Shown in pieces: positions 11,019 through 27,004 of a stretch of 64,000 bases of DNA. Source of the DNA: an uncultured bacterium (GTDB lineage Bacteria > Omnitrophota > Omnitrophia > Omnitrophales > Abzuiibacteriaceae); contig CAYLXA010000006.1 of the NCBI GenBank assembly GCA_964387845.1, positions 128,001-192,000 of the forward strand, given 5' to 3'. Each line of letters opens with the position of its first letter. Position 1 is the first letter of the stretch. Position numbers and translations under genes: made by a program. The notes under the pieces were generated by a model that searched no databases, was not told the DNA's origin, and was given only the letters and a program-made list of their open reading frames with translations.

Positions 11019-11246
11019 GTGAATGACCTTTCAGCCGTTAATCCAGCCGGTCCGACGCCAAAAATCAGCTTGAAAATCGAAAAACCGCGTGACCAAAGTA
11101 TTCACGGTTTTTTTAACACGCTTCTAATCATTTCGTTTTTATTGATTGCTGCGACTTTGTGGGTGCTCGCGCTTGAATATTTGGACATGCCGGCACCGAT
11201 GTGGCTTCTTGATTTGATTGATGAATTGAAGCTCATTTTCGCTTGA
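11019..11246 (+). CDS. hypothetical small single-TM membrane protein
   Basis: 75-aa ORF with one hydrophobic helix (LLIISFLLIAATLWVLAL). It sits where ftsL would be in a canonical dcw cluster. No recognisable motif. Confidence 0.3.
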   Translation: MNDLSAVNPAGPTPKISLKIEKPRDQSIHGFFNTLLIISFLLIAATLWVLALEYLDMPAPMWLLDLIDELKLIFA

Positions 11247-11255
11247 TAATTAGAT

Positions 11256-11720
11256 ATGACACGACGCGTTGCCCTCAAGCCTGCCGCCATCCTTCTGATT
11301 CTAGGTATTTTTTTGGCTTTCCCGTGGCTGAGCGGCTACACGTTTCTTCAATATATGAAAATGAAGCACAGTGTTACGATTCACGGTTTTTGGTATCCTT
11401 CTTATTTCCCGATCGGAAAGTTTTATGTGCGTCAATTAAATGCGGATTGGAAAGATGATTTTCGAATCCAGTCCGGGACGCTTGAAGTCCAATATAATCC
11501 GTTTCTGTTTTCAATTTCGCGCGGTGGTGTTTCGTTGAAAGGGCGCGATCTGGAGGTTTCGGTGAAGAAATTGAACTCAAATCTCAAAGTGAAAGGGCCG
11601 TTTGTCGTAAACCGGTTTGATGCCAAGCTGGAATTGCGGCCTCGCGCAGAGCCCTTCATCCACTCGCTTGAAATTGACTCGCCGGTGATTCAATTCAAAA
11701 TCAACGGGCAATCGGCATGA
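11256..11720 (+). CDS. hypothetical membrane-anchored protein
   Basis: 154-aa ORF with an N-terminal signal/anchor helix. ATGA overlap with the downstream ORF. No family recognised. Confidence 0.4.
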   Translation: MTRRVALKPAAILLILGIFLAFPWLSGYTFLQYMKMKHSVTIHGFWYPSYFPIGKFYVRQLNADWKDDFRIQSGTLEVQYNPFLFSISRGGVSLKGRDLEVSVKKLNSNLKVKGPFVVNRFDAKLELRPRAEPFIHSLEIDSPVIQFKINGQSA

Positions 11721-12439
11721 ACCTCTATTCCGGAAAAAATTTCTCAGCACCTTCTGTGCTGATTTCGCTGTGTGTGCACGCCGGTATTTTACTCATCGGC
11801 CATGCGGCAGTAGCGTATTCGTGGGTGATTCCGATTCAGACGGAACAGAGCATCCTGCTTGAGTTAAATTCGTCGGCATCCCATCCAAAATCGTCCGCAC
11901 AGAAAGCGGCGCTGCCCAAGACCGAAGAGAAGCCGCAGAATCCTGCGCCGGAAAAGGAAAAATTAGCGGATGCGGCGCCAAAAAATTCAGGTTGGGACAA
12001 CCGCGAATTTCAAGACCGGCAAGCCAGGATGGATCAAAAAATTGAACTAATCCGTGAACAAATTAGAAAAATCAAAGAAGGCCAATCCACAGGCGCCGAA
12101 TTGAAAGGCTTCGAGCTGATTTCGGCAGGCCTTGATAGCGAATCGTGGCGGTCTTATTTGGCAAAGCTTCGGCGGCAAGTTCTTGAAAAATGGTATCCGA
12201 TGATTCTTTCACGAGAAAGCCAATTAAAAACCAGCGAAGCGCGGCTTGATTTCTATATCGGGACGGATGGGCGAGTGGTGGCTTATGAAATTGCAGATTT
12301 AAAAGGCGTGCCTGTTTTTGGTGAAATTTGTTTGGAAGCTTTCCGGCGTGCTATTGGGACCGAAGCAAGCCTTGCGAGACAAGCGGTGAAGCCCGTCGGC
12401 AATTTCCTAAAGGTGTCGCTCTTTTTTTATTACCAATAG
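11717..12439 (+). CDS. TonB-family C-terminal-domain protein
   Basis: N-terminal TM helix and a Pro/Lys-rich linker (PKTEEKPQNPAPEKEK). The C-terminus is TonB_C-like (WYPMILSRESQLKTSEARLDFYIGTDGRVVAYEIADLKGVPVFGEICLEAFRRA). Confidence 0.45.
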   Translation: MNLYSGKNFSAPSVLISLCVHAGILLIGHAAVAYSWVIPIQTEQSILLELNSSASHPKSSAQKAALPKTEEKPQNPAPEKEKLADAAPKNSGWDNREFQDRQARMDQKIELIREQIRKIKEGQSTGAELKGFELISAGLDSESWRSYLAKLRRQVLEKWYPMILSRESQLKTSEARLDFYIGTDGRVVAYEIADLKGVPVFGEICLEAFRRAIGTEASLARQAVKPVGNFLKVSLFFYYQ

Positions 12440-12545
12440 AACCAGGCTCTGCCCAAGTCAAGTATTGAAGCTTTTTTTCCGAAATATGAAGCACTGCTCT
12501 TGGGTTATTTTAAAGAGTAAATTTTTCGGGTCTGGGTGATGATTT

Positions 12546-14036
12546 ATGAAATTGTTGGGTGAGTTTTTGCAGGATATCCGGTATCAATGGAATGGCCGGG
12601 GATCTTTATTTGTTCCGGTTCATCGCGTGGTATCGGATTCGCGCATTGTTCAGAAGGGTGATATTTTCGTTGCGTTGAAAGGGCCGCTTGCGGACGGCCA
12701 TGATTTTATACCGCATGCGGCAAGCCGTGGCGCAGCGGCCATTATTGCGGAAACCAAGCTGAATCCGTCAACCAATCTCCAAGACACCGCTTTTCTCCAA
12801 GTCGAAGACAGCCATTTTGCATTCAGCCGTTTACTGACAAGATTGCACGGCCTGGAGGCACGGCCCATTCAATTAATCGGCGTTACAGGCACCAACGGCA
12901 AGACAACGATTACTTACTTGATCCGATTTTTGCTGAACCAGCTTTCGGCTTGCGGCCTAATCGGAACCGTGCGCTACGAGTGGGCGAATAAATCCATCGA
13001 GTCTAAAAACACAACACCGGGCCTCGGGCAGCTCATTCCGCTTCTTTCCGACATGGTCCAAGACGGCATGAAATATTGTGTGGCTGAAATTTCAAGCCAC
13101 GGGCTTGATCAAAACCGCCTTGCCGGGCTTGATTTCACGGCTGCTGTTTTTACGAACCTGACGCAAGACCACCTGGATTATCACCGCACGCTTGAAAATT
13201 ATTATTTGGCAAAACGCAAACTTTTTGTATCTAAGCCGGCGCCGAAATTTTCGGCGGTTAATTTAGACGATGAGTACGGCCGGAGACTGTTGTCGGAGTT
13301 GGGCAAACGTGCCGTTAGTTTTGGTTTTGACGCGGGCGCTACTTACCGTGCTCAAAATGAAAAAGTAACGCTCGAAGGTTCCGAGTTTGATCTCATTTAC
13401 CGGGGGGGAACCCACCGCGTTAAAACCAATTTACCGCTCCGGCATAATATTTATAATGTCTTAGCGGCGCTCAGCATTCTTTCAGAACTTGATTTTGCTC
13501 TGGAGCAATTAATCCCGCTGCTTCCCAAGTTTCCGGGCGTGCCTGGGCGCATGGAGCGTGCAGATGCGAAGGGCGGCGCGCTTGTGTTTGTGGATTACGC
13601 GCACACGCCGGACGCTGTTTTTAATGTGCTGTCATCGGCGCGGCCGCTTGTAGGCGGAAAAATCATCACCGTCTTGGGCTGCGGCGGCAATCGCGATAAA
13701 GGCAAGCGCCCTTTGATGGGCCGTATCGCCGGTGAAGGATCTGACATTGCAATCGTGACGAGTGATAATCCAAGAAATGAAGAGCCGCAATCGATTCTGG
13801 ACGCCATTCGGCCGGGGATAGCGGAAGGCAGGCAAGCCGAATTTATTTTAGACCGCAAAAAAGCGATTGAGCGCGCCATTGAATTGGCGGGCCCCAAAGA
13901 TGTGGTGCTCATTCTCGGAAAAGGACATGAAAAGTATCAAATCGTCGGCGATCAAACGCTTCCGTTTGATGACGTTGAGGTTGCGCAAGAATGTTTAAGA
14001 AAAAAGGCGGGTAAATCACATGCTGTCCATTCCTGA
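12546..14036 (+). CDS. murE: UDP-N-acetylmuramoyl-L-alanyl-D-glutamate--2,6-diaminopimelate ligase
   Basis: Mur ligase with P-loop GVTGTNGKTT, DNPR motif (VTSDNPRNEEP) and meso-DAP-type organisation. Position in the dcw cluster. Confidence 0.9.
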   Translation: MKLLGEFLQDIRYQWNGRGSLFVPVHRVVSDSRIVQKGDIFVALKGPLADGHDFIPHAASRGAAAIIAETKLNPSTNLQDTAFLQVEDSHFAFSRLLTRLHGLEARPIQLIGVTGTNGKTTITYLIRFLLNQLSACGLIGTVRYEWANKSIESKNTTPGLGQLIPLLSDMVQDGMKYCVAEISSHGLDQNRLAGLDFTAAVFTNLTQDHLDYHRTLENYYLAKRKLFVSKPAPKFSAVNLDDEYGRRLLSELGKRAVSFGFDAGATYRAQNEKVTLEGSEFDLIYRGGTHRVKTNLPLRHNIYNVLAALSILSELDFALEQLIPLLPKFPGVPGRMERADAKGGALVFVDYAHTPDAVFNVLSSARPLVGGKIITVLGCGGNRDKGKRPLMGRIAGEGSDIAIVTSDNPRNEEPQSILDAIRPGIAEGRQAEFILDRKKAIERAIELAGPKDVVLILGKGHEKYQIVGDQTLPFDDVEVAQECLRKKAGKSHAVHS

Positions 14037-15432
14037 AATCGCCGGCGCGTGCCGCGGAAAAATCATTGGTCTGCAAACCAGTGTCCTGTCGGGCATTTCT
14101 ACGGATACAAGGAATATTAAGCCGGGTTCGGTTTTTTATGCGTTGCGCGGAAAGAATTTTAACGGCCATCAATTTTTACAAGACGCTTTCCGGAAGGGTG
14201 CCGCTGTCGCCGTCGTTGATGACCAATTTGCCAGAGCGTCATCCGAAGCCTTGTCGCAGCTCGGCGCTTCCAACACGCTTATTGTTGTTCCGGATGTTTA
14301 TCGAGCGCTTTTAGATTCTGCGTGTGCTTACCGCCAAAAATTCAAGATTCCCGTCGTAGGTATCACCGGAAGCGCCGGAAAAACGACGACAAAGGAATGT
14401 GTTCGCGCCATTTTAGGCTTGCGTTACCAAACACTTTCCAACATTGGTAATTTCAATAATCACATTGGCCTCCCGCTCAGTATTTTCGAAATGAATCAAG
14501 CAACGCAGGCCGCTGTCTTCGAGCTTGGCGCCAATAAATCCGGCGATATTCGCGAACTTTGTGAAACAGCCCGGCCAACCGTTGGTGTTTTGACCTGTGT
14601 TCAGCCCGTTCATTTGGAGGGATTCGGCTCTCTCGACAATATTTACAAAACCAAGCTTGAGCTTGCCGGATGGATCGCATCTCAAAAAGGTGTCATGATT
14701 ATTTATGGTGACGACCCCGAGCTTTTGAAAAGAGCGAAAAAAATTTCTTCTAAACTAAAAACATTCGGCCGGGGGAAAGGTTGTGATTACCGCGTTTCAA
14801 ACGAGCGGCAAGACGGTGAGCGGATTCGTTTTACAATCAATGAAAAATTCGACTTTTCCGTGAAAGCCATGGGCCTTTTCAACGTGCTGAATTTTGCAGC
14901 CGGCATCGCGGCGGCGGCCGAATTGAAATTAGATTTGAATGATCTTGCCCGGGATTGGCACGACTTTCAGCCGGCAGCCAATCGGTTTGAAATCGAACGT
15001 ATGGAAAATCCCAAGGTTGTGTTTGTCAAAGATTTTTATAATTCCAACCCGGTTTCATTTCAGATTGCTTTGCAAGCATTTGAAGCGCTTCCATCCGAAG
15101 GCAGGAAGATCATTGTGGCGGGTGATATGCTCGAGCTTGGTCCGGATGCAGCGAAATATCATGGGGAGTTGGGAGAGCAAGCCGGCAAAAGCCGCGCGAA
15201 CGCTTTCATTTATATCGGAAAATACGCAGAGCCCGCCGCAGCCGCAGCGCGGAAGCTCAACCATCAGATTCAGATTGCGACATTTTCCGACAATCAACAT
15301 GCAGCCGATTATTTATCCGGATTTTTACGTGACCGCGACTGTGTGTTTATGAAAGCTTCGCGCGGCATGAAGTTTGAAGAAATTTTGAATGCACTTAAAA
15401 ATGTTCCGGATTTATCGTTAACACATCCGTAA
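14020..15432 (+). CDS. murF: UDP-N-acetylmuramoyl-tripeptide--D-alanyl-D-alanine ligase
   Basis: Mur ligase P-loop GITGSAGKTTTKE. Overlaps the murE stop. Canonical dcw order. Confidence 0.9.
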   Translation: MLSIPEIAGACRGKIIGLQTSVLSGISTDTRNIKPGSVFYALRGKNFNGHQFLQDAFRKGAAVAVVDDQFARASSEALSQLGASNTLIVVPDVYRALLDSACAYRQKFKIPVVGITGSAGKTTTKECVRAILGLRYQTLSNIGNFNNHIGLPLSIFEMNQATQAAVFELGANKSGDIRELCETARPTVGVLTCVQPVHLEGFGSLDNIYKTKLELAGWIASQKGVMIIYGDDPELLKRAKKISSKLKTFGRGKGCDYRVSNERQDGERIRFTINEKFDFSVKAMGLFNVLNFAAGIAAAAELKLDLNDLARDWHDFQPAANRFEIERMENPKVVFVKDFYNSNPVSFQIALQAFEALPSEGRKIIVAGDMLELGPDAAKYHGELGEQAGKSRANAFIYIGKYAEPAAAAARKLNHQIQIATFSDNQHAADYLSGFLRDRDCVFMKASRGMKFEEILNALKNVPDLSLTHP

Positions 15433-15445: not shown

Positions 15446-16534
15446 GTGTTTTATTATTTTCTTTATCCGCTGAGTGATCATTCAATTTTGTTTAACGTTT
15501 TTAAATACATCACATTCCGCTCGGTCGGGGCGAGCGTGACCGCCTTTTTGTTCTGCATTTTTATGGCACCGGCCGTTATTGATTGGCTGAGCCGTTTGTG
15601 CGTGGTCAATTCCACAAAGCGCGAACATGCGCAATCGATTCATAAATTCTATGAGCATAAAGGCAAAGTGCCGACAATGGGCGGCGTTCTGATCGTCGGC
15701 AGCATTCTTCTTTCGTGCCTTTTGTGGGGCAATTTCGGAAACGCGTTTTTTAATTTATCGCTGATTGTCTTGATTTTGTTTGCCGCTGTCGGTTTTTTGG
15801 ATGATTACATTAAATTGAAATCTAAAAGCTCAAGAGGCCTAAGCGCGCGCGTCAAATTGGCGGGACAATTGGGCGCTGGTTTACTGCTCGCAGTTTATCT
15901 TTTTTGGGATCCTGCAGTGGATACTAAATTATTTATTCCGTTTTTCAAGACTGCCACCGTGATGCTGGGCTGGCTTTATATTCCGTTTGTGGTGCTCGTG
16001 CTGGTCGGTACATCCAACGCCCTTAATTTAACCGATGGGCTTGACGGGCTTGCGATCGGCTGCTTCACCATCGCAGCTGGTGTTTTTGGGCTTATTTGCT
16101 ATATCGTGGGCCGTATCGACTATGCCACTTATTTAGAAGTCCGCTATATTGCCCAAGCAGCGGAACTGTCCATATTTTGCGCGGCCCTTGTCGGCGCGGC
16201 CCTTGGTTTTCTTTGGTATAATTCCTATCCTGCGAGTATCATGATGGGCGACACAGGCTCTCTTGCACTTGGCGGCGCGTTGGGCACGATTGCCATTTTA
16301 GTCAAAAAGGAAGCTATTTTAATCGTCGTCGGCGGCGTTTTTGTGTGGGAAGCGCTTTCTGTTATTTTGCAGGTGTTTTGCTATAAAAATTTTAAAAAGC
16401 GGATATTTTTAATGTCGCCCTTTCATCATCACCTACAACTGAAAGGCTGGCCCGAATCCAAAGTGACGATCCGGCTGTGGATTGTCGCGTTTATTTTGGC
16501 GCTTCTCGGACTCAGCATGCTGAAATTGAGATGA
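15446..16534 (+). CDS. mraY: phospho-N-acetylmuramoyl-pentapeptide transferase
   Basis: 10-TM protein with MraY motifs (PTMGG, NLTDGLDGLA, MGDTGSLALGG). Confidence 0.9.
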   Translation: MFYYFLYPLSDHSILFNVFKYITFRSVGASVTAFLFCIFMAPAVIDWLSRLCVVNSTKREHAQSIHKFYEHKGKVPTMGGVLIVGSILLSCLLWGNFGNAFFNLSLIVLILFAAVGFLDDYIKLKSKSSRGLSARVKLAGQLGAGLLLAVYLFWDPAVDTKLFIPFFKTATVMLGWLYIPFVVLVLVGTSNALNLTDGLDGLAIGCFTIAAGVFGLICYIVGRIDYATYLEVRYIAQAAELSIFCAALVGAALGFLWYNSYPASIMMGDTGSLALGGALGTIAILVKKEAILIVVGGVFVWEALSVILQVFCYKNFKKRIFLMSPFHHHLQLKGWPESKVTIRLWIVAFILALLGLSMLKLR

Positions 16535-17829
16535 GCTCAACTCAAGAAGCGAAAACCGGTTCTGAAACGGCCAACACCGCTGTGAAGTTGGTCGGCGAGT
16601 CTGTTTCTGTCCTTGGGCTTGGAAAAAGCGGATTTGAAAGCGCGAAGTTTCTTGCCAAGCGCGGCGTTCAAGTGTTTGCCAGCGAATCCAAATTCTCGCC
16701 GGAATTACTCAAGCGCAAAGAAGAGCTCGAACAGCTTGGTGTCCGCGTTGAAATCGGAAAACATTCCATCCGATCGATCGCGCGGGCCGATCGTGTCATT
16801 ATTTCTCCCGGGATCCCGCCGTCTGCGCCGGTCTATGAATCGCTTCGGAAAAAGAAAATCCCGATTTGGAGCGAAATCGAACTGGCATATCAATTTTGCC
16901 CGGCACCCATTATTGCCGTGACCGGGACGAACGGAAAAACGACCGTCACATCATTAATTGCGCGAATTTTATGCGCCAATCAGTTTCATGCGATTTCCTG
17001 CGGCAACATTGGCAACCCGCTGATCGGTGAAATCGAAAATTTAACGGATCAATCCATTGCTGTCACTGAGGTTAGTTCGTTTCAACTCCAAAACATTGAT
17101 CAATTTCGTCCCTATATCGGTATCGTGCTTAATCTCACCGTTAATCACCTAGACTGGCACGCCAATTTTGCAGAATACGCGGCAGCCAAATGGAACTTGT
17201 TTAAAAATCAAAGGCCGCACGATTATGCGTTTTTAAATGCCGACGATATTGAAAGCATGCACCGCGCGGATTTGATTCAATCGCAAAAAGTTTATTTCAA
17301 CGGCGGCGAGCACGAAAACCCGAATTTTGCGGCGTGCCTTGCAGTGGCGAATTTGTACCGGCTGGATGATCACAAAACGCGAAAAATCATCGATGAATTT
17401 CCCGGCATTGAGCATAGGCTCGAAAAAGTGCCGTCCCGGGATGGTTTTCGGTACTTTAATGATTCGAAATCAACGACAATCGCATCGCTCGGTTGGGCGC
17501 TTGACCGGATGAAAGACAAAGCCGTATTAATCATGGGCGGTAAGCATAAAGGCGGTGATTTTTCGGTCTTACGCGATAAAATAAAATCAAAAGTTCGTTT
17601 TTTGGTTTTAATCGGAGAGGCCGCGCCGGTTTTGGAGAAAGCCTTTGGAAGAATTGTTAAAACCATGACGGCGCCCAATTTGGAACAAGCGGTCCGGCAG
17701 GCGCGTGCGGCGGCTTGCGCAAGTGACGCCATTTTATTTTCGCCGGCGTGTGCAAGTTTTGATATGTTCGAAAATTACGAAGACCGGGGCCGGAAGTTTA
17801 AAGCCATTGTTCAAAGCTTTCAGAAATAA
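16531..17829 (+). CDS. murD: UDP-N-acetylmuramoylalanine--D-glutamate ligase
   Basis: Mur ligase P-loop GTNGKTT. The likely start MSSTQE overlaps the mraY stop (ATGA). The ORF-track start at 16477 lies inside mraY. Confidence 0.85.
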   Translation: MSSTQEAKTGSETANTAVKLVGESVSVLGLGKSGFESAKFLAKRGVQVFASESKFSPELLKRKEELEQLGVRVEIGKHSIRSIARADRVIISPGIPPSAPVYESLRKKKIPIWSEIELAYQFCPAPIIAVTGTNGKTTVTSLIARILCANQFHAISCGNIGNPLIGEIENLTDQSIAVTEVSSFQLQNIDQFRPYIGIVLNLTVNHLDWHANFAEYAAAKWNLFKNQRPHDYAFLNADDIESMHRADLIQSQKVYFNGGEHENPNFAACLAVANLYRLDDHKTRKIIDEFPGIEHRLEKVPSRDGFRYFNDSKSTTIASLGWALDRMKDKAVLIMGGKHKGGDFSVLRDKIKSKVRFLVLIGEAAPVLEKAFGRIVKTMTAPNLEQAVRQARAAACASDAILFSPACASFDMFENYEDRGRKFKAIVQSFQK

Positions 17830-17869: not shown

Positions 17870-18979
17870 ATGTCACAAGAATCCAGAAGCATTTTTATTG
17901 TGATGCTTCTTTTAATTGCCGTCGGCGTGATCATGATCTACAGCGCTAGCGCGGTGTTTGCGGACCAATTGTTCGGAAGTTCCACTTATTTCCTGCGCCG
18001 TCAGCTTTTTTATTTAATTTTGGGCCTTCTGGCGTTCGGTGTTAGTTACTATGCAAACCCCGAATTTTTAAGAAGTCACGCAAAGGGGCTCATGATTTTC
18101 GCTTTTTTCATACTGCTCCTCGTTTTTATTCCCGGGCTCGGCCATTCGGCGGGCGGTGCGCGGCGCTGGATCGGTTTCTCGTTTTTTACATTCCAACCTG
18201 TTGAATATGCGAAACTGGCGGTTTGTTTGTATCTATCGGACTACCTCACCCGAAAAATGAAATTGATGGTAACGGGGGACCATATGGTTTTAGTTCCGCC
18301 TATCGCAATACTGCTTTTTATGCTCTCACTTTTAATCGCGCAGCCTGATCTTGGTTCAACTATTTTTGTTTTAATGATCGCAGGCATTTTGTTCATTTTG
18401 GCCGGCATCCGGCTGAGATATATTGCCATGGCAGTGGTTCCGGTCGTTTTTGCCATCGTTATTTTGATCATCAAGGCGCCGTACCGGATGAACCGCATCG
18501 CGGCTTTCTTGGATCCCTGGAAGGACCCGCGCGGCACGGGATTTCAAATTATTCAATCGTTTCTTGCGTTTTCATCCGGGGGCGTGAAGGGTGTAGGGCT
18601 CGGCCAAAGCACCCAAAAATTATTTTATTTGCCGCAAAGCTACACCGATTTTATCTTTTCAATTATTGCCGAAGAGCTTGGTCTTATCGGCGCGTTGTTT
18701 GTGGTTTCGCTCTACGGTTGTTTTTTTGTGATGGGCGTCCGGATTGCCAACAAAACACACGACCCGTTTTACCGCCTCTTTGCTTATTCACTGGTGCTGA
18801 TTATTACACTGCAGGCTTTGATCAATATTCTGGTGACAACCGGGCTTGTGCCGACCAAAGGGCTTCCGCTTCCGTTCGTCAGTTACGGCGGTACTTCACT
18901 TATTTTTAATATGATCGCAGTCGGTCTTCTGCTGGCGATTGACCGTCATATTGTTTATAGATCTCCCGCTTATCGTTAA
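17870..18979 (+). CDS. ftsW: cell division/peptidoglycan polymerase FtsW (SEDS family)
   Basis: 10-TM SEDS protein with motifs GSTIFVL, FIFSIIAEELG and PFVSYGG. Sits between murD and murG. Confidence 0.85.
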   Translation: MSQESRSIFIVMLLLIAVGVIMIYSASAVFADQLFGSSTYFLRRQLFYLILGLLAFGVSYYANPEFLRSHAKGLMIFAFFILLLVFIPGLGHSAGGARRWIGFSFFTFQPVEYAKLAVCLYLSDYLTRKMKLMVTGDHMVLVPPIAILLFMLSLLIAQPDLGSTIFVLMIAGILFILAGIRLRYIAMAVVPVVFAIVILIIKAPYRMNRIAAFLDPWKDPRGTGFQIIQSFLAFSSGGVKGVGLGQSTQKLFYLPQSYTDFIFSIIAEELGLIGALFVVSLYGCFFVMGVRIANKTHDPFYRLFAYSLVLIITLQALINILVTTGLVPTKGLPLPFVSYGGTSLIFNMIAVGLLLAIDRHIVYRSPAYR

Positions 18980-18983: not shown

Positions 18984-20072
18984 ATGAGAGAGGCGCCAAA
19001 ACATTCGATAGTGATTACAACCGGAATGACGGGAGGGCATTTTTTCCCGGCTTTGAGTTTTGCGGAAAGTTTTGCAGCCGCACATCCTGATTTTGAAGTT
19101 CATTTTCTGCTTCCGCGCGAGAATAAACGATTTGATCTGGCACGCGTGAATCCTAAAATTTCCTTTCACCCGATTCCAGTCGAGCCTTTTCCGCGCGCTT
19201 TTAGTTTAAAGCTCATGTCTTTTTTGATACACTATCTGCGTTCTTTGAGAGCTACTTTTCAATTTTTTTCCCGCAGAAAACCGGCGGTAATTGTAAGTTT
19301 CGGGAGTTACGGCTCATTTCCAGGTGTTTTATGTGCTTGGGTTCTTGGAATTCCCGTAGTCTTGCATGAACAAAACCGGATTGCGGGCTGGGCAAATCGT
19401 TTGGCGTCTTTTTTAGCAACGTATGTGGCGGTATCGTTTTCTGATACGAGCGGGATCGTGTTGAAAGGCAAAATCAAAAAAGTCGGATATCCGCTTAGAA
19501 AAGAAATTTTGGAAGCGGCTCATAGAAAACAGAGCGAGGCAGCAAACAGCCGGCCGGCGAATATTCTCGTTTTGGGAGGTTCACAGGGTGCCTCAGCCAT
19601 CAATGAGGCTGTTTTAGAGCTCTTCGATAAATTATCTGTTGAGGAAAAACAAAAATTAGCCGTAATACATATCACCGGCGAGGCGCAGCATTCCGAGGTT
19701 TTGAAGCGCTATCAAGCGAACGGCGTGAAACATCAAGTGTTCGCGTTTTCGGATGAAATGCATCGCTGGTACGAGCAGGCGGATCTTGTGATTGCGCGTG
19801 CCGGCGCAGGAACGGTCTTTGAGTTGATCGAATTTAATTTGCCGTCGGTTTTGATTCCGTATCCGTTTGCACATTCGCATCAATTCAAAAATGCGCAATA
19901 TTTGGAAGAAAAACGGATGGCTATGATTATCGAACAAACGGAATTAACAGCGACGCGGCTTCACAGTGCAATTTTTGAAATGTTGAAGCGTTTTGATCAA
20001 AAGGACAAGTCGCCGCGCGTGATGCAAAATCCGAATCAAAATTTTATTCAGTTGGTTGATCAATTGATTTAA
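18984..20072 (+). CDS. murG: UDP-N-acetylglucosamine--N-acetylmuramyl-(pentapeptide) pyrophosphoryl-undecaprenol N-acetylglucosamine transferase
   Basis: GT28 N-terminus ITTGMTGGHFFPAL and C-terminal ADLVIARAGAGTVFE. Start placed at the internal Met after the ftsW stop. The track ORF starts at 18939. Confidence 0.85.
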   Translation: MREAPKHSIVITTGMTGGHFFPALSFAESFAAAHPDFEVHFLLPRENKRFDLARVNPKISFHPIPVEPFPRAFSLKLMSFLIHYLRSLRATFQFFSRRKPAVIVSFGSYGSFPGVLCAWVLGIPVVLHEQNRIAGWANRLASFLATYVAVSFSDTSGIVLKGKIKKVGYPLRKEILEAAHRKQSEAANSRPANILVLGGSQGASAINEAVLELFDKLSVEEKQKLAVIHITGEAQHSEVLKRYQANGVKHQVFAFSDEMHRWYEQADLVIARAGAGTVFELIEFNLPSVLIPYPFAHSHQFKNAQYLEEKRMAMIIEQTELTATRLHSAIFEMLKRFDQKDKSPRVMQNPNQNFIQLVDQLI

Positions 20073-20097: not shown

Positions 20098-21510
20098 ATG
20101 ACACAGTTACAGCAGGCGGTTAAGGACATTCAAAGTCTTTTACAGCCCGGAAAACGGGCTCATTTAATCGGTGTGGGCGGCGTCGGCATGAGTGCGCTTG
20201 CCAAGGTTTTGAAGCATATGGGCCTTGCCGTCAGCGGATCCGATATGAAAGCAGGCCGCGTCGCTTCCGAGCTCACTTCCGGCGGCATTCAGATTTTCAA
20301 CGGGCATGATAGCCACAACGTTTCCAATTGCGATTTCATTATTTATTCTTCCGCCATCCGTGTTGACAATCCCGAAAGGCGCCAGGCGCTGATTAGCGGT
20401 ATTCCGTCTTTTCATCGCGCAGAAGTTTTGTCGAATATCATGAACCGGGGTATTTCAATCGGCGTTACAGGCACGCACGGTAAAACAACCACATCGGCCC
20501 TCATTAGCTTTTTGCTTCAAGCTGCAGGTTTACGCCCGACTTGTTTGGTGGGTGGTAATATTTTAAATTTCGGATCCAACACGCTGCTTGGCGATCCCAA
20601 TCTTTTTGTCGCAGAAGTGGACGAGAGCGATAAAAGCCATTTGAATTTTAAGCCTGATTTTGCGGTTTTGACCAATCTCGAAGAAGACCACATGGATGTC
20701 TATCAGGATTTTGCGAATCTGCAGCTCGCATTTTCCCAGTTTGTCGAAAACATTCAGCACTCGGGACATGTGATCTTTTCGGCGCACGATTCAAACCTAA
20801 AGGAGATTACGCGCATTACAACCCGCAAAACGGATTACGGATTGTCGCGCAATTACGGTTTTGGAGCAGAAGAAGTTGTGTTGGAGGGCTTTCAGTCGCG
20901 CTTCCGGCTTTACGAAAAAGGTGAATTTATTTCAACGGTTTCGCTAACCGTGCCGGGCATGCACAACGTGCTGAATGCGCTTGGCGCAATCGCGACGCTC
21001 AGAACCTTTGGAATTCCGTTCAGAAGTTTCGAAGCAGCGCTCCCCAAATTTCGCGGTGCCGGACGTCGGCTCGAGGTGAAGCTTGAGCATCGCGGCTGGA
21101 CCGTTATTGATGATTACGCGCATCATCCCACGGAAGTGATTGCGTCATTGAAAGCAATTCGGACATTGGGCAAACCGACGACGGTGGTGTTTCAGCCGCA
21201 CCGGTATTCGCGCATGCAGTATCTCGGAGAGTCGTTTTCTAAAGCATTTCATCATGCAGATTGCCTCATTTTAACGGATATTTACAGTGCAAATGAAGAG
21301 AATGCAAAAGGAATTGATGTGAGCGACTTGTATGAAATGGTAAAAAGTGCCGGGCATCCGAATGTTCGCATGGTAGCCCGCGATCAATTAATCGATCATT
21401 TGCTCCAGGACTCCGCAGGCGAAGGCGTGGTTGCCTTTCTCGGAGCCGGAGATATCGGAGAGGTGGCCTGTGAATTTGCCGAACGGCTTCGTGGTTCCGA
21501 TCCAGAATAA
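20098..21510 (+). CDS. murC: UDP-N-acetylmuramate--L-alanine ligase
   Basis: HLIGVGGVGMSALA N-terminal Rossmann fold and a Mur ligase P-loop GTHGKTTT. Confidence 0.9.
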   Translation: MTQLQQAVKDIQSLLQPGKRAHLIGVGGVGMSALAKVLKHMGLAVSGSDMKAGRVASELTSGGIQIFNGHDSHNVSNCDFIIYSSAIRVDNPERRQALISGIPSFHRAEVLSNIMNRGISIGVTGTHGKTTTSALISFLLQAAGLRPTCLVGGNILNFGSNTLLGDPNLFVAEVDESDKSHLNFKPDFAVLTNLEEDHMDVYQDFANLQLAFSQFVENIQHSGHVIFSAHDSNLKEITRITTRKTDYGLSRNYGFGAEEVVLEGFQSRFRLYEKGEFISTVSLTVPGMHNVLNALGAIATLRTFGIPFRSFEAALPKFRGAGRRLEVKLEHRGWTVIDDYAHHPTEVIASLKAIRTLGKPTTVVFQPHRYSRMQYLGESFSKAFHHADCLILTDIYSANEENAKGIDVSDLYEMVKSAGHPNVRMVARDQLIDHLLQDSAGEGVVAFLGAGDIGEVACEFAERLRGSDPE

Positions 21511-22405
21511 CGTTCCGCTTTGCCGGTTTTCAACTTTGCAAATCGGCGGCCCGGCTGCCTATTTTGCAGAGCCGGATACGCGCGAAGCACTATTACCGCT
21601 TCTGGAATTTCAAAAACAGGAAAATCTCCCGCTTCTTGTAATCGGCCGCGGTTCCAATATTTTATTTTCCGACGAAGGATTCCCAGGGCTTGTTATTTCG
21701 CTTCGGAAATTTGAACTCGAACGCATTCAATTCAATCCCAAAGGCCTAGTAAAAGTTTCCGCCGGTATGAGCCTTTTTCGATTGTCCGCATTATGCCAGG
21801 AGCAGGGAGTGAGCGGGCTTGAATTCATTTGCCACATTCCCGGCACTGTCGGCGGTGCTTGCGCCATGAATGCCGGTTTCGGCCGCGCCGGGGTTCATTA
21901 TCAGGAAATCAAAGACGTTCTAAATTCGGTCACGGTTTTGGATGCGGCAACAAGCAAATTGCGTGTGATTCAACGCAGTGAAATTGATTTTCAATACCGC
22001 AAAAGCAGTCTCGAGCGGGAAATTGTTTTAGATGCCACGTTCCAATTAAAGCCATCCACACGCGAGGCGGTGCGAGATGAAGTAAAAGCCAACTTTGCTT
22101 ATCGGAATTCCGTGCAGGATCTGCGCTATCCGAGCGCCGGATCCGTTTTTAAGAATCCGAAAAAACCCACGGAATCAGCCGGGAAGCTGATCGACCGCGC
22201 AGGGCTTCGCGGAACGCGGATCGGCGGCGCCATGATTTCGGAAAAACACGGCAATTTTATTTTAAACGTCGGAAATGCAAAGTCAGCCGACGTTTTGCAG
22301 CTTATTGATTTGGCAAAATCTCGGGTTCTTGAGCAGTTTGGTATTGAGTTAGAGCCCGAAGTAAAACTGATGGTGCCCGGCTTGTCGTCTGCGTGCGCCG
22401 TTTAA
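21431..22405 (+). CDS. murB: UDP-N-acetylenolpyruvoylglucosamine reductase
   Basis: FAD-binding MurB N-terminus (CRFSTLQIGGPAAYF, IGRGSNILF) and a C-terminal MurB domain. Start uncertain: the ATG at 21431 overlaps murC by 80 nt, and a downstream GTG near 21470 is possible. Confidence 0.8.
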   Translation: MPFSEPEISERWPVNLPNGFVVPIQNNVPLCRFSTLQIGGPAAYFAEPDTREALLPLLEFQKQENLPLLVIGRGSNILFSDEGFPGLVISLRKFELERIQFNPKGLVKVSAGMSLFRLSALCQEQGVSGLEFICHIPGTVGGACAMNAGFGRAGVHYQEIKDVLNSVTVLDAATSKLRVIQRSEIDFQYRKSSLEREIVLDATFQLKPSTREAVRDEVKANFAYRNSVQDLRYPSAGSVFKNPKKPTESAGKLIDRAGLRGTRIGGAMISEKHGNFILNVGNAKSADVLQLIDLAKSRVLEQFGIELEPEVKLMVPGLSSACAV

Positions 22406-22435: not shown

Positions 22436-23365
22436 GTGAAATCGTTTAATCAAATCTGCGTACTTTTGGGAGGTAACTCGCACGAACGTGAAATTTCAAT
22501 CCGTTCTGGATCTGCAGTGGCCGAAGCGCTTGTCCGCTCCGGGTTCGAAGTCTCGCAGCTTGATGCTAAAAACGGCTGGCGTGAAAAACTCAAAAATAAA
22601 AAACCTGACGCAGTATTTGTGGCGCTTCACGGTACCGGCGGAGAAGACGGCGAGGCGCAAAAAGTTTTAGAGGGCCTCGGAATCCCTTATGTCGGTTCCA
22701 GCCCTGATGCAAGTTTGGATGCTTTTGATAAACTCCGCTCCAAAAGAATATTCGAGAAAGAATCCATTCCGACCCCGGCCTGGGCCCTCATCACCGGAAA
22801 AAATTGGAAAAAGAAAATTGAAGAGCTGAAAATCCCGATTTTTATCAAGCCGATTGCCGATGGTTCCAGCATCGGCGTTGAATTAATCGAATCTGAAATT
22901 GAACTAGAGCCGACGATCGAAAAGAGCCTTAAACAGTACGAATCCATCATTGTTGAAACTGCAATCCAGGGAAGGGAGTTTACGGTCGGTATTTTAGGAG
23001 ACCAGGCGTTGCCCGTATTGGAAGTGAGGCCGAAGCGCCGTTTTTATGATTACACAGCCAAATATACGAAAGGGCAGACGGATTATCTCGTCCCGGCACC
23101 GATTGATGAGAATTTTGCCGTCAAGCTTCAAGCGCTTGCGTTAAAAACGCACTTAGCTTTGGGGCTTCGCGATTTTTCAAGAGTTGACATGATTGTTGAT
23201 CTGGCCGGAAATCCGTATATTTTAGAGGCCAATTCAATTCCGGGTTTTACTGAAACAAGTCTTTTGCCAAAAGCGGCCCAAGCAGTCGGAATTAGTTTTG
23301 ATAAGTTGTGCGTGAAATTAGTAGAGCTTGCGTATCAGCGAGTTGCGGGGAAGGTTTATGCGTAA
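22436..23365 (+). CDS. ddl: D-alanine--D-alanine ligase
   Basis: ATP-grasp protein with Ddl motifs (ICVLLGGNSHEREISIRSG, VALHGTGGEDG, PGFTETSLLPKAA). GTG start. Confidence 0.85.
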   Translation: MKSFNQICVLLGGNSHEREISIRSGSAVAEALVRSGFEVSQLDAKNGWREKLKNKKPDAVFVALHGTGGEDGEAQKVLEGLGIPYVGSSPDASLDAFDKLRSKRIFEKESIPTPAWALITGKNWKKKIEELKIPIFIKPIADGSSIGVELIESEIELEPTIEKSLKQYESIIVETAIQGREFTVGILGDQALPVLEVRPKRRFYDYTAKYTKGQTDYLVPAPIDENFAVKLQALALKTHLALGLRDFSRVDMIVDLAGNPYILEANSIPGFTETSLLPKAAQAVGISFDKLCVKLVELAYQRVAGKVYA

Positions 23366-24167
23366 GCGTTCAAACCGCGGAAAATCAAAAAATATTTTCG
23401 TCCGTCTTTTTGAAAAAATATTTCTTTTGTTTTTCTTGCTATGGAAAAGCATCCCAATCCTAATTATTGCCGCAATTTTTTACTTCTCATTTTTCGGTGT
23501 CAAAGATTTGTTAAGTGCGGATTCTCATTTTCAAATCGCCAGTCTTAAAATTTTTCCGCGCGGCATATTGACTGATCAGGAATATCAGGCGCTCGAGCGG
23601 CGTTCAACCGGTGTTAATTTACTCAAAGCCGACCTCCGGACGCTCAGGGCAATGATTGAAACAAATCCCAAAGTTAAGCAGGCGGATGTGGTCCGAAAAC
23701 TTCCAAATGAACTGGAAATTACGCTGACGCCTCGAAAAGTGGCCATGCAGTTTCGGACGTCGCCCCGCGGCCCGTTCTACACGCTCGGCGAAGATGCGGT
23801 CGTGATGTCGTCGGCAGATTCCCGGGATTTATCGCTCATTGAATTCTCGAATTTTGACTATGCCGCGAAACGCCTTTCGCCTCTTGACCGTTATTCCGAT
23901 CCTTCTTGGCACAAGCTCCAGTCGATTTTGGACTCTTTGAAAAAGCATGACGCAACAAAGCGGGAAAAGGTTGACCGCGTATCAGTTGATAAAACCGGAA
24001 ATTTTACGGTGTCGTTTGTAGGCGGTCTTGAGCTTGTACTGCGTGATACGAGCGATATGACAAACCAAAAAATGATAGCGCTCGGGAACTTGTTGGCGTC
24101 ACCGGAACGGGACTTGATTGCTTATATTGATTTGCGCCACCTTGACATTATTTTGAAGTACAAATAA
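23358..24167 (+). CDS. ftsQ: cell division protein FtsQ/DivIB (POTRA domain)
   Basis: Short cytoplasmic tail, one TM helix and a POTRA-like segment. Lies between ddl and ftsA. Start chosen at the Met overlapping the ddl stop. The track ORF begins at 23328. Confidence 0.65.
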   Translation: MRKRSNRGKSKNIFVRLFEKIFLLFFLLWKSIPILIIAAIFYFSFFGVKDLLSADSHFQIASLKIFPRGILTDQEYQALERRSTGVNLLKADLRTLRAMIETNPKVKQADVVRKLPNELEITLTPRKVAMQFRTSPRGPFYTLGEDAVVMSSADSRDLSLIEFSNFDYAAKRLSPLDRYSDPSWHKLQSILDSLKKHDATKREKVDRVSVDKTGNFTVSFVGGLELVLRDTSDMTNQKMIALGNLLASPERDLIAYIDLRHLDIILKYK

Positions 24168-24185
24168 AACAACGCACCGTTTAGC

Positions 24186-25424
24186 ATGAACCAAAAGCCG
24201 CTTATCCGCTACATTCTGCACATCGGTACCGTCAAAATATCGTTCCTGAAAATACTCTTTAAACCGACCGGCCAGCGCGAAATTTTAAAAACCGTAACCT
24301 GCAGTTCGGACGGTTTTGACAAAGGAGTCGTGACAGACCTGTCCAAGGCTGCCGAAAGCATTCACCAGGGGCTTAAAGTGATTACGAGCGGTTCTAACGA
24401 GTCGCTGATTCCATGCCGGGTCGTCGTGTCAAACGGCCATCTTAAAAACTATACCTATTCGAGTTCGCTTTATTTTTACGGCAATTCGCATGAGCTCAGC
24501 ATGAAGGATGTCCGCGATGTGATTGCCCAAACCCGCAGTGTAGCCACAATCCCGCTGAACGAAATGATTATCCAGGCTATTCCGCAGGAATTTTTGGTAG
24601 ACAATATGGCTGGTATTTCAAATCCGATCGGCCTCGAAGCGACGCGGCTTGGCGTTACGTTACGGCTTTTTACGACCGAATATAGTATTTATCAAAATTT
24701 ATTAAAAGCAACCGAGCGCGCCGATGTAGACGCGCGGGATATCGTACCGACCTCTCTGACATCCGCTCACGCCGTCCTCACACAGGAAGAAAAGCAGGAG
24801 GGTGTAATCTTGATTGATGTGGGCGGTCACGCAACACATGTGGTTGCGTTTCAAAACGGCATTTTGCAGGAATCAAAATCATTTCAGGATGGATCTGAGG
24901 TGATTACGGATGCTCTTGCGCGAAAATACAATCTCAAACTGGATGAAGCGCGCCGCGTTAAAGAAACCTATGCTTCTTTGTCAAAGAAGCCTGAATTTGC
25001 CGACGAGCTTATCCCGATTTGCGACAAGGAAGGGCATAAAAGCTCACATGTTTCAAAATCGGAATTGCAAACCGAAATTGAAAGTTCTCTTTCAATTTTT
25101 ACGCACAAACTGCTGGACCCGGCGCGTCACATGATTAAAAAGCACGCACCAATTACGCAAGTTGTCATGACAGGCGGCGGCGCGAAGCTGGACGGTCTTT
25201 TAGAGTTTGTTCAGCAGGAGCTTGGCTCGAGCGTGCGGCTCGGTGTTGCGAAGAATATTTTTGGAGATCAAAAAGTCATTAATGATCCCGCTTTCGCGGG
25301 CGCCATCGGCGCTTCGGACTATTCTAGTTTTATCATGGATCCCATCACGGTTCTCAACCAATCCGGAAACGCGGTTTATAAAATCCTCAACACGGCCAAA
25401 CGCTGGGTTTCCGAATACTTCTGA
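24186..25424 (+). CDS. ftsA: cell division protein FtsA (actin-like ATPase)
   Basis: Actin/HSP70-fold motifs (ILIDVGGHATHV, VVMTGGGAKLDGL). Follows ftsQ. Confidence 0.8.
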   Translation: MNQKPLIRYILHIGTVKISFLKILFKPTGQREILKTVTCSSDGFDKGVVTDLSKAAESIHQGLKVITSGSNESLIPCRVVVSNGHLKNYTYSSSLYFYGNSHELSMKDVRDVIAQTRSVATIPLNEMIIQAIPQEFLVDNMAGISNPIGLEATRLGVTLRLFTTEYSIYQNLLKATERADVDARDIVPTSLTSAHAVLTQEEKQEGVILIDVGGHATHVVAFQNGILQESKSFQDGSEVITDALARKYNLKLDEARRVKETYASLSKKPEFADELIPICDKEGHKSSHVSKSELQTEIESSLSIFTHKLLDPARHMIKKHAPITQVVMTGGGAKLDGLLEFVQQELGSSVRLGVAKNIFGDQKVINDPAFAGAIGASDYSSFIMDPITVLNQSGNAVYKILNTAKRWVSEYF

Positions 25425-27001: not shown

Positions 27002-27004
27002 TTT

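What the first reader, a model, noticed from the sequence alone, without database searches (positions are those of the whole stretch)
11019..25424. Stripped-down dcw cluster: no mraZ/rsmH/ftsL/ftsI upstream and no ftsZ after ftsA
The window holds murE-murF-mraY-murD-ftsW-murG-murC-murB-ddl-ftsQ-ftsA in canonical order. The space normally occupied by mraZ, rsmH, ftsL and ftsI is instead filled by a 75-aa single-TM protein, a 154-aa membrane-anchored protein and a TonB-C-terminal-domain protein. After ftsA the next gene is gcvT rather than ftsZ. Neither edge is a window boundary, so the absences are real for this locus. This raises the question of where, or whether, a division transpeptidase and FtsZ are encoded. 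It also raises whether the three small proteins are analogues of FtsL/FtsB or envelope-coupling components.
Basis: seen in the sequence. Interest (0 to 1): 0.5.

Follow-up and report, generated by a model that had tools for sequence, protein, structure and literature searches.

The report
FtsZ-less Omnitrophota cell-wall/division operon
This is the usual cell-wall and division gene cluster of an uncultivated Omnitrophota bacterium, a group that seems to divide without the near-universal FtsZ ring. It keeps an altered FtsA, and three lineage-specific membrane proteins, one of them TolA/TonB-like, sit where the usual upstream division genes would be.

Summary
murE-murF-mraY-murD-ftsW-murG-murC-murB-ddl-ftsQ-ftsA is intact. 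gcvT follows ftsA, and three small bitopic membrane proteins precede murE. No FtsZ, class-B PBP, FtsL, MraZ or RsmH is encoded anywhere in the 64 kb.

It is neither an artefact nor a one-off rearrangement. The window is Candidatus Omnitrophota. The upstream arrangement recurs in four other lineages and the ftsZ-less ftsA end in four. In contrast, 27 of 27 control dcw loci from other phyla have ftsZ directly after ftsA.

Published surveys found FtsZ in no genuine Omnitrophota genome. The one positive, OLB16, was later called misclassified.

New here:
- None of 45 Omnitrophota-type FtsA sequences keeps the Arg (E. coli R300) of the FtsZ-tail pocket or the phosphate-1 Asp.
- They keep the membrane helix.
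- The 75-aa and 154-aa proteins show no homology to FtsL or FtsI; FtsB was not compared.

Genome-wide absence of ftsZ and ftsI could not be tested directly.

The parts
11019..11246 (+). X: 75-aa bitopic protein. It has a cytoplasmic motif K-[ILV]-[GS]-[LI]-K-I-[EA]-[KR]-P, one TM helix and a short acidic periplasmic tail (EY..P.P.W...).
   Evidence: Conserved in 5 lineages, and uncalled in two of the assemblies. pN/pS is 0.31 against the closest sampled relative (FtsA 83% identical). No Pfam or NCBIfam hit. hhalign against FtsL gives 0.4% probability.
11256..11720 (+). Y: 154-aa protein with an N-terminal TM anchor and a beta-rich periplasmic domain of about 115 aa. Invariant features include SG, G..[DE]..V and S..IQF. 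Fold unknown.
   Evidence: Only 4 word-index homologues, plus syntenic orthologues at 24-28% identity. The AF2 model is poor (pLDDT 46.7). No PDB, Pfam or NCBIfam hit. There is no acidic residue in the TM helix, unlike ExbD/TolR. pN/pS is 0.22.
12546..14036 (+). murE
   Evidence: Three Mur ligase domains.
14020..15432 (+). murF
15446..16534 (+). mraY
   Evidence: Glycos_transf_4.
16531..17829 (+). murD. The start is as called in the public assembly; the ORF extends to 16477.
17870..18979 (+). ftsW (SEDS glycosyltransferase)
   Evidence: PF01098 at 1.4e-111. TIGR02614 above cutoff.
18984..20072 (+). murG
20098..21510 (+). murC
21470..22405 (+). murB
22436..23365 (+). ddl
23358..24167 (+). ftsQ
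   Evidence: POTRA_1. FtsQ_DivIB_C is a weak hit in orthologues.
24186..25424 (+). ftsA, a remodelled subfamily. The SHS2/1C domain and the C-terminal amphipathic helix are kept. The equivalents of E. coli R300/E303 and the phosphate-1/phosphate-2 motif residues are replaced.
25491..26615 (+). gcvT, the first gene after ftsA. It starts a gcvTH-PA-PB-lplA...M48 block that other lineages lack at this site.
9327..10994 (+). GAF-HD-GYP (c-di-GMP phosphodiesterase-type) gene, always immediately upstream of X.

Best explanation
The window carries the lineage-typical cell-wall and division operon of a Candidatus Omnitrophota bacterium (PVC group). This phylum appears to have lost FtsZ while keeping peptidoglycan synthesis and FtsQ, FtsA, FtsW and FtsK.

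Shown:
- The operon is X-Y-Z-murE-murF-mraY-murD-ftsW-murG-murC-murB-ddl-ftsQ-ftsA.
- The upstream arrangement is conserved in four other lineages and the ftsZ-less ftsA end in four, at FtsA identities down to about 40%.
- No ftsZ, ftsI, ftsL, mraZ or rsmH lies within the 64 kb.
- FtsA keeps its 1C domain and membrane-targeting helix. Clade-wide it has replaced the Arg/Glu pair of the FtsZ-tail pocket and the phosphate-1 Asp and phosphate-2 GGGT residues.

Inferred:
- Division is FtsZ-independent and peptidoglycan-dependent.
- Membrane-bound FtsA acts as a scaffold, not a Z-ring tether, for FtsQ, FtsW and a class-B PBP encoded elsewhere.
- Z couples a proton-motive-force stator (TolQR/ExbBD type, encoded elsewhere) to the wall or outer membrane during envelope growth or constriction, as Tol-Pal does.
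- X and Y are its lineage-specific bitopic inner-membrane partners.
- X's conserved cytoplasmic peptide is a candidate link to FtsA.
For: Identity of the organism:
- FtsA and MurE homologues are named Omnitrophica/Omnitrophota.

Synteny:
- L003/L009 (FtsA 83% identical), L005/L010 (51%), L007/L008/L011 (42%) and L013 (40%) all lack ftsZ after ftsA.

Controls:
- In 80 dcw loci from other phyla, 27 of 27 that extend past ftsA have ftsZ next to it.
- MraZ, RsmH, FtsL and FtsI profiles hit 30, 37, 37 and 46 control loci and none of the Omnitrophota loci.
- X, Y and Z profiles hit only Omnitrophota loci.

Literature:
- PMC8178401 (Fig. 5b legend and Supplementary Data 2; absences checked by TBLASTN) lists no FtsZ in four Omnitrophica genomes, three of which have FtsA.
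- PMC5147048 Table S1 gives the same picture.
- The only FtsZ-positive genome, OLB16, is reported as misclassified in PMC10066038.

FtsA:
- The E. coli R300 position is Arg in 27 of 27 and 44 of 49 non-Omnitrophota FtsAs, and in 0 of 45 Omnitrophota-type FtsAs.
- Asp14 is present in 27 of 27 and 49 of 49 non-Omnitrophota FtsAs and in 0 of 45 Omnitrophota-type ones, which mostly have Tyr or His.
- Residues 294-304 of subdomain 2B form the FtsZ-tail site according to PMC10769210, which cites Pichoff and Lutkenhaus 2007.

Operon and coding status:
- pN/pS is 0.2-0.4 for X, Y and Z.
Against: - Genome-wide absence of ftsZ was not tested for this genome. Only 64 kb plus about 7 kb downstream of a 199-kb contig were seen.
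- PMC12283558 groups Omnitrophota with phyla whose dcw genes are 'highly conserved', although it gives no ftsZ call for that phylum.
- The Omnitrophota FtsA is divergent overall. Only 52% of cells in columns conserved among controls are retained. Loss of R300/E303 is therefore not demonstrably specific to the FtsZ site.
- No TolQR/ExbBD, TolB or Pal gene lies in the window.
- Any division role for X, Y and Z rests on conserved adjacency alone.
- The conserved block also extends upstream to c-di-GMP and nucleotide-hydrolase genes, so X-Y-Z could belong functionally to those.
- The fold of Y is unknown.
Confidence: 0.68

Rival explanations
1. Simple rearrangement. ftsZ, together with ftsI, ftsL, mraZ and rsmH, is encoded elsewhere in the same genome, and division is canonical.
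For: - Only part of the genome was visible.
- For ftsI, rsmH and mraZ this is likely. Ca. Omnitrophus magneticus has ftsI next to murE, and WOR_2 has one class-B PBP next to rodA (Table S1 of PMC5147048).
- mraW is reported as conserved throughout the PVC group (PMC12283558).
Against: For ftsZ specifically:
- Two independent surveys found none in genuine Omnitrophota genomes, one of them with a TBLASTN check.
- FtsA has lost the Arg of the FtsZ-tail pocket in 45 of 45 clade members.
- ftsA and ftsZ are adjacent in 27 of 27 control loci and in none of 5 Omnitrophota lineages.
Confidence: 0.15
2. X-Y-Z has nothing to do with division. It would be an ordinary TonB-type uptake module, or a c-di-GMP-regulated envelope module, that merely sits upstream of murE.
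For: - Z has TonB-like features: a YP motif, a Pro/Lys/Glu-rich spacer and about 240 aa, like E. coli TonB. PDB profile and Foldseek top hits are TonB C-terminal domains.
- The GAF-HD-GYP gene is always directly upstream.
Against: - The position directly 5' of murE, on the same strand with gaps of 21-106 nt, is kept down to 29% Z identity.
- No exbBD and no TonB-dependent receptor lies nearby.
- The family is tiny and lineage-restricted: 29 representative clusters among 1.84 billion.
Confidence: 0.3
3. X and Y are extremely diverged FtsL/FtsB or a truncated FtsI N-terminal module, that is, remnants of the ancestral mraZ-rsmH-ftsL-ftsI block.
For: - They occupy the position of ftsL and ftsI.
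- Both are bitopic N-in/C-out proteins, as FtsL and FtsI are.
Against: - hhalign gives X vs FtsL 0.4%, Y vs the FtsI N-terminus 0.7% and Y vs FtsL 0.3%.
- X has about 22 periplasmic residues and no leucine-zipper coiled coil.
- Y is predicted all-beta.
- Pfam gives no hit even at E = 10.
Confidence: 0.08
4. Assembly or binning artefact: a chimeric contig or a mis-join removed the flanking genes.
For: The sequence comes from a metagenome assembly.
Against: The same junctions are found in independent assemblies from Logan, JGI, ENA and NCBI, across five or more lineages.
Confidence: 0.01

Closest known systems
FtsZ-less, peptidoglycan-dependent division in other PVC bacteria (Chlamydiota; Planctomycetota such as Phycisphaerae and Planctomycetales)
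   Same: - Same superphylum.
- ftsZ is absent while the mur genes, ftsW, ftsQ and ftsK are kept.
- The dcw cluster is fragmented or reduced (PMC5147048, PMC12283558).
   Different: - Those phyla also lack FtsA, and Chlamydia uses MreB/RodZ/FtsK instead. Here FtsA is retained, in a remodelled form.
- ftsI is kept in those groups, next to murE in chlamydiae, but is missing from this locus.
- A TolA/TonB-like cassette precedes murE here.
Canonical dcw cluster (mraZ-rsmH-ftsL-ftsI-murE-...-ftsQ-ftsA-ftsZ)
   Same: The central murE to ftsA block has identical order and orientation.
   Different: The 5' block (mraZ, rsmH, ftsL, ftsI) and the 3' ftsZ are absent. Both were present in the control loci.
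TolA of the Tol-Pal system and TonB of the Ton system
   Same: - N-terminal TM helix with Ser-x3-His.
- Extended linker.
   Different: - It is not next to tolQR/exbBD, tolB or pal.
- Instead it is preceded by two unrelated bitopic proteins and followed by murE.
- The window copy is below Pfam and NCBIfam cutoffs.
- The family is restricted to this clade.
FtsA (TIGR01174), membrane tether of FtsZ
   Same: - Actin-like fold with the SHS2/1C insert.
- C-terminal amphipathic helix.
- About 30% identity to the solved FtsA structures in the 7Q6x PDB series.
   Different: - The equivalents of R300/E303 and D14/G214/T215/D217 are replaced clade-wide.
- No adjacent ftsZ.

Membership tests
Canonical dcw cluster | murE-murF-mraY-murD-ftsW-murG-murC-murB-ddl in conserved order on one strand | tested here: met
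   Pfam and NCBIfam.
Canonical dcw cluster | 5' block mraZ-rsmH-ftsL-ftsI immediately upstream of murE | tested here: not met
   Profiles from control loci give no hit in the window or in any Omnitrophota locus. Pfam is also negative.
Canonical dcw cluster | ftsQ-ftsA-ftsZ at the 3' end | tested here: not met
   ftsQ and ftsA are present. ftsZ is absent in the window and in 4 further lineages, against 27 of 27 controls.
FtsA | Score above the curated family cutoff, with the SHS2 (1C) insert | tested here: met
   TIGR01174 224.8 bits against a cutoff of 175.85. PF02491 and PF14450 are hit.
FtsA | C-terminal amphipathic membrane-targeting helix | tested here: met
   The tail ...VYKILNTAKRWVSEYF aligns with control tails such as ...FKKIFDSMKNWFQEFF. 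This is judged from sequence pattern only.
FtsA | FtsZ C-terminal-peptide pocket in subdomain 2B (E. coli R300/E303 region, residues 294-304) | tested here: not met
   Arg is present in 0 of 45 Omnitrophota-type FtsAs, against 27 of 27 and 44 of 49 FtsAs from other phyla. The role of the site is taken from PMC10769210 and from my own knowledge of Pichoff and Lutkenhaus 2007 and Szwedziak et al. 2012.
FtsA | Canonical ASKHA nucleotide motifs (phosphate-1 D-x-G-T/S; phosphate-2 D-x-G-G-G-T) | tested here: not met
   D14 is replaced by Tyr/His in 41 of 45 and is Asp in none. G214/T215/D217 are replaced. The adenosine TGG motif is kept. Whether nucleotide is still bound is unknown.
TonB/TolA energy transducers (protein Z) | N-terminal TM helix with the Ser-x3-His signature | tested here: met
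   S17 and H21 are at least 90% conserved in 22 family members. The full SHLS spacing (His+7 Leu) is not kept.
TonB/TolA energy transducers (protein Z) | C-terminal TonB/TolA-type alpha/beta domain | tested here: met
   - AF2 pLDDT above 90 for residues 142-240.
- Foldseek probability 1.0 to the TonB C-terminal domain.
- TonB_2 is above cutoff in orthologues.
- The window copy itself is below cutoff.
TonB/TolA energy transducers (protein Z) | Partner stator (ExbB/ExbD or TolQ/TolR) and outer-membrane or periplasmic partner (TonB-box receptor, or TolB/Pal) | tested here: not met
   None is found in the 64-kb window or in the flanks of the relatives. They may be encoded elsewhere, so this is not testable genome-wide.
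FtsL/FtsB (proteins X and Y) | Bitopic protein with a periplasmic leucine-zipper coiled coil, detectable by profile | tested here: not met
   hhalign against FtsL gives at most 0.4%. No Pfam hit, and Pfam includes FtsB/DivIC models. No dedicated FtsB profile was built. The periplasmic tail of X has about 22 residues. Y is predicted all-beta.
FtsI / class-B PBP (protein Y) | PBP dimerisation (pedestal) domain plus transpeptidase domain | tested here: not met
   Y has 154 aa. hhalign against the FtsI N-terminus gives 0.7%. The FtsI profile gives no hit.
ExbD/TolR (protein Y) | Essential Asp in the TM helix and an ExbD-family periplasmic domain | tested here: not met
   No acidic residue in the TM helix in 5 lineages. 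No PF02472 hit.
FtsZ-less PVC division | No FtsZ or tubulin homologue anywhere in the genome | not testable with these tools
The feature is supported indirectly by the literature, by synteny and by the FtsA changes.

The most novel reading that the evidence does not exclude
Omnitrophota would divide with an FtsZ-independent, FtsA-centred machine. In this reading a remodelled FtsA, possibly no longer a conventional ATPase, polymerises on the membrane. It is linked through the conserved cytoplasmic KIGLKIEKP peptide of the 75-aa protein X to Y and to the TolA-like Z. Z then uses proton-motive force to pull the wall and outer membrane inward while FtsW and a PBP build the septum. This would be a third solution to FtsZ-less division, distinct from the chlamydial MreB-based one and from planctomycetal budding.
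Probability: 0.2. Interest if true: 0.85.

Novelty: new variant of a known kind. Interest (0 to 1): 0.58.

Why it matters
How bacteria divide without FtsZ is a long-standing open question, studied so far in Chlamydiae and Planctomycetes, both of which also lack FtsA. Omnitrophota would be a widespread, mostly ultra-small clade that dropped FtsZ but kept FtsA. That allows FtsA's Z-ring-tethering role to be separated from its other roles, such as recruiting and activating the peptidoglycan synthase and forming membrane filaments.

The clade-wide substitutions in FtsA, at the FtsZ-tail pocket and the nucleotide motifs, give testable targets. So does the conserved X-Y-Z (TolA/TonB-like) cassette co-located with murE. 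The work also reconciles conflicting statements in the literature, because the single 'Omnitrophica' genome with FtsZ belongs to a lineage later declared misclassified.

Tried and rejected
I reused them as positive controls and as a source of FtsZ, FtsI, FtsL, RsmH and MraZ profiles.
- Walking along the contig led nowhere. The FtsK exact look-up failed. The 3' extension showed only FGE-sulfatase-like genes.
- The AlphaFold model of Y from a 4-sequence alignment was unusable (pLDDT 46.7), and Foldseek on it gave only noise.
- No PDB, Pfam or NCBIfam match was found for X or Y.
- X and Y as FtsL or FtsI remnants: rejected by hhalign.
- Y as ExbD/TolR: rejected, since it has no TM Asp and no Pfam hit.
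- Literature: searching 'R300E' found nothing, and Szwedziak 2012 is not held. The role of R300/E303 therefore rests on PMC10769210 plus my own knowledge.
- No paper was found on Velamenicoccus fts genes.
- The afdb50 library was unavailable.
- dS between the window and its closest relative is saturated, so only pN/pS is reported.


Full report
**1. The observation**

FtsW and FtsA exceed the curated NCBIfam equivalog cutoffs. The gene after ftsA is gcvT, after a gap of 66 nt. It is followed by gcvH, gcvPA, gcvPB and lplA.

Upstream of murE are three ORFs of 75, 154 and 240 aa with no Pfam hit. They lie directly after a GAF-HD-GYP gene.

I annotated every large ORF in the 64 kb. The same ORFs were searched with MraZ, RsmH, FtsL and FtsI profiles that I built from control loci. 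Nothing in the window matches. The intergenic gaps are too short to hide remnants.

**2. Whose genome, and is the arrangement a one-off?**

The closest FtsA and MurE homologues carry Omnitrophica/Omnitrophota names. Two syntenic relatives are Ca. Danuiimicrobium aquiferis and Ca. Abzuiibacterium crystallinum, both filed under Candidatus Omnitrophota in the PVC group. The exact proteins occur on a 199-kb NCBI contig and in the Logan assembly of SRR15237813.

I fetched the neighbourhoods of FtsA, MurE and Z homologues from independent assemblies:
- L003/L009: FtsA 83% identical.
- L005/L010: 51%.
- L007/L008/L011: 42%.
- L013: 40%.

In every locus that reaches past ftsA, the next gene is not ftsZ. 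It is gcvT in two lineages. In two others it is batD, followed by a TPR/SH3 gene, trpB, trpA, ruvX and so on. That batD block begins at 35735 in the window. The gcv-to-M48 segment is therefore an insertion, or a deletion in the others, at the ftsA 3' junction.

In every locus that reaches upstream of murE, the order is AAA ATPase, (HIT), dGTPase-like HD, GAF-HD-GYP, X, Y, Z, murE. The 75-aa gene was not called in two assemblies but is present and conserved there.

**3. Controls**

A metagenome scan with an MraY alignment returned 80 dcw loci from other phyla, with MraY at most 51% identical. These serve as controls:
- All 27 loci that extend beyond ftsA have ftsZ immediately after it.
- MraZ, RsmH, FtsL and FtsI profiles hit 30, 37, 37 and 46 of the control loci, and none of the Omnitrophota loci.
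- X, Y and Z profiles hit only the Omnitrophota loci.

The probes therefore work, and the arrangement is both unusual and specific to this lineage.

**4. Is FtsZ elsewhere?**

I could not search the whole genome. Three lines of indirect evidence point to real loss.

(a) Literature.
- Pende et al. 2021 (PMC8178401) state that FtsZ is absent from Planctomycetes, Omnitrophica and Chlamydiae, and that only the first and last also lack FtsA.
- Their Supplementary Data 2 lists FtsZ as 'NA' for four Omnitrophica genomes, three of which have FtsA. Absences were checked by TBLASTN.
- Rivas-Marin et al. 2016 (PMC5147048, Table S1) likewise found FtsZ only in 'Omnitrophica bacterium OLB16'.
- Seymour et al. 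2023 (PMC10066038) report that the OLB16/SURF_12 lineage was misclassified as Omnitrophica.
- So no genuine Omnitrophota genome in either survey has FtsZ.
- PMC12283558 says dcw genes are 'highly conserved' in Omnitrophota. That is a clustering statement over many genes in complete reference genomes, and it gives no ftsZ call for the phylum.

(b) Synteny, as described above.

(c) FtsA itself. I aligned it with E. coli FtsA, using residues 13-386 rebuilt from the PDB alignment.

| Position (E. coli numbering) | 27 controls with adjacent ftsZ | 49 homologues from other phyla | 45 Omnitrophota-type cluster representatives (at least 40% identical to the window protein) |
|---|---|---|---|
| R300 | Arg 27/27 | Arg 44/49 | Arg 0/45 (Gly 30, Val 5, Ala 4, Ser 3, Ile 2, Pro 1) |
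| E303 | Glu 27/27 | Glu 45/49 | Glu 7/45 |

Residues 294-304 and 234-245 of subdomain 2B form the FtsZ-tail pocket according to PMC10769210, which cites the Pichoff and Lutkenhaus 2007 screen. That R300 and E303 are the salt-bridge residues is my own recollection of that paper and of Szwedziak et al. 2012, which I could not retrieve.

One caveat applies. The Omnitrophota FtsA is divergent overall, retaining only 228 of 438 cells in columns that are at least 90% conserved in the controls. The loss therefore fits FtsZ absence but is not proof of it.

**5. FtsA is remodelled in other ways too**

- The phosphate-1 acidic residue (E. coli E14; Asp in 27/27 and 49/49 other FtsAs) is Tyr or His in 41 of 45, and never Asp.
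- The phosphate-2 motif 'GGGT.D' becomes 'GG(H/Y/T/C)(A/S/V)T(H/R)'.
- The adenosine 'TGG' motif, the SHS2/1C domain and the C-terminal amphipathic helix are kept.

I infer that this FtsA still sits on the membrane and still offers its 1C surface, but has an altered, possibly non-catalytic, nucleotide site and no canonical FtsZ pocket.

**6. The three small proteins**

All three are N-in/C-out bitopic inner-membrane proteins, judged from the positive-inside rule and the AF2 helices. They are under purifying selection, with pN/pS of 0.31, 0.22 and 0.37 against 0.20 for murE. Synonymous sites are saturated, so these are rough values.

Z (240 aa):
- An exhaustive phmmer search of 1.84 billion representatives finds only 29 clusters, so this is a small clade-restricted family.
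- 9 of 22 members hit Pfam TonB_2 and 8 of 22 hit TonB_C.
- Orthologues pass the TonB_2 cutoff. The window copy does not.
- S17 and H21 in the TM helix are nearly invariant, matching the SxxxH signature of TonB/TolA.
- The AF2 model has pLDDT above 90 for residues 142-240.
- Foldseek: H. pylori TonB C-terminal domain (E 8.5e-4, probability 1.0) and TolA C-terminal domain (probability 0.99).

Y (154 aa):
- It consists of a TM anchor and a beta-rich domain.
- The word-index search finds only four close homologues.
- The AF2 model is unreliable.
- There are no database hits.
- It has no acidic residue in the TM helix, so it is not ExbD/TolR-like.

X (75 aa):
- It has the conserved cytoplasmic motif K-[ILV]-[GS]-[LI]-K-I-[EA]-[KR]-P, a TM helix and an acidic tail of about 22 residues.

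Profile-profile comparison with FtsL and FtsI N-terminal alignments from the control loci gives probabilities below 1%. The idea that X and Y are FtsL/FtsB/FtsI remnants therefore has no support. FtsB itself was not compared.

The Y stop overlaps the Z start (ATGA). The Z-murE gap is 21-106 nt across lineages and has no terminator-like site in the window. Co-transcription with murE is likely but not shown.

**7. Most likely mechanism**

Shown:
- A reduced, conserved operon.
- An FtsA with the changes described above.
- A TolA/TonB-type protein with two partners immediately 5' of the peptidoglycan-synthesis genes.

Inferred:
- Division without a Z ring, in which membrane-bound FtsA scaffolds FtsQ, FtsW and a PBP encoded elsewhere.
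- FtsK (252-2543) and two SPOR-domain proteins (45318-45896 and 46821-47681) take part.
- Z, energised by a stator encoded elsewhere, couples the inner membrane to the wall or outer membrane, as Tol-Pal does in constriction.
- The cytoplasmic peptide of X is a candidate FtsA ligand, by analogy with the FtsN N-terminus binding FtsA 1C and with PilN binding PilM. This last step is speculative.

**8. Comparison and novelty**

The closest known situation is FtsZ-less division in Chlamydiota and Planctomycetota. Those phyla lack FtsA, however, and keep ftsI in or near the cluster.

The absence of FtsZ with FtsA retained in Omnitrophica is already tabulated (PMC8178401). To my knowledge it has not been analysed, and the main Omnitrophota genomics papers do not discuss division.

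As far as my searches show, three things are new:
- The conserved X-Y-Z-murE architecture that replaces mraZ-rsmH-ftsL-ftsI.
- The TolA/TonB nature of Z.
- The clade-wide FtsA substitutions.

I rate it a new variant of a known kind, of moderate to good interest. The main limit is that genome-wide absences and any functional link of X-Y-Z to division remain untested.

Noticed in passing
window 24186-25424 (FtsA); L003, L005, L007, L013, L014; P0001-P0050: The Omnitrophota-type FtsA has non-canonical ASKHA nucleotide motifs. The phosphate-1 Asp/Glu is replaced by Tyr/His in 41 of 45 sequences and is never Asp. Phosphate-2 GGGT.D becomes GG(H/Y/T/C)(A/S/V)T(H/R). It may be a non-hydrolysing or differently liganded FtsA.
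   Followed up: yes
window 25491-35611, compared with L007/L008/L013 at about 11371: The block gcvT-gcvH-gcvPA-gcvPB-lplA-141aa-uvrD-M48 peptidase-TPR/Peptidase_MA lies between ftsA and batD in this lineage and in the relatives whose FtsA is 83% and 51% identical. It is absent in two other lineages, where ftsA is followed directly by batD (window 35735). The ftsA 3' junction is thus an indel hotspot, and no ftsZ is present in either state.
   Followed up: partly
window 9327-10994, 47681-48043, 48874-49314, 49471-51546; L010 2252-3325; L095 3492-4529: c-di-GMP and cyclic-nucleotide signalling genes surround the cluster in all lineages. A GAF-HD-GYP gene is always directly upstream of X. A GGDEF gene lies a few genes further upstream in two lineages. 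Two PilZ proteins and a cNMP-binding patatin lie downstream. This may point to second-messenger control of envelope growth.
   Followed up: no
window 45318-45896 and 46821-47681: Two SPOR-domain proteins (septal peptidoglycan binding) follow lepA-lepB. The first is also conserved at that position in relatives (L007, L013). They are candidate late-division proteins in an FtsZ-less setting.
   Followed up: no
window 6056-9314: An AAA_16/STAND-like ATPase, a HIT hydrolase and a dGTPase-like HD protein (HD plus HD_assoc) are conserved upstream of the HD-GYP gene in all lineages examined. HIT is missing in L095. Their function in this block is unknown.
   Followed up: no
literature (PMC5147048, PMC8178401, PMC10066038): The only 'Omnitrophica' genome reported to have FtsZ (OLB16) belongs to a lineage that Seymour et al. 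2023 call misclassified. That removes the apparent conflict between the surveys.
   Followed up: yes
window 59462-63730; L012: A secretin-type cluster is present, made up of an AAA_22 ATPase, a T2SS-C-like protein, a secretin and a TPR protein. Two FGE-sulfatase-like genes follow it beyond the window end.
   Followed up: no
PMC5147048 Table S1: In Omnitrophica WOR_2 SM23_29 the only class-B PBP detected is the one next to rodA, about 11 genes beyond ftsA. In Ca. Omnitrophus magneticus a ftsI homologue sits directly before murE. The loss of ftsI from the dcw cluster is therefore not uniform across the phylum.
   Followed up: partly
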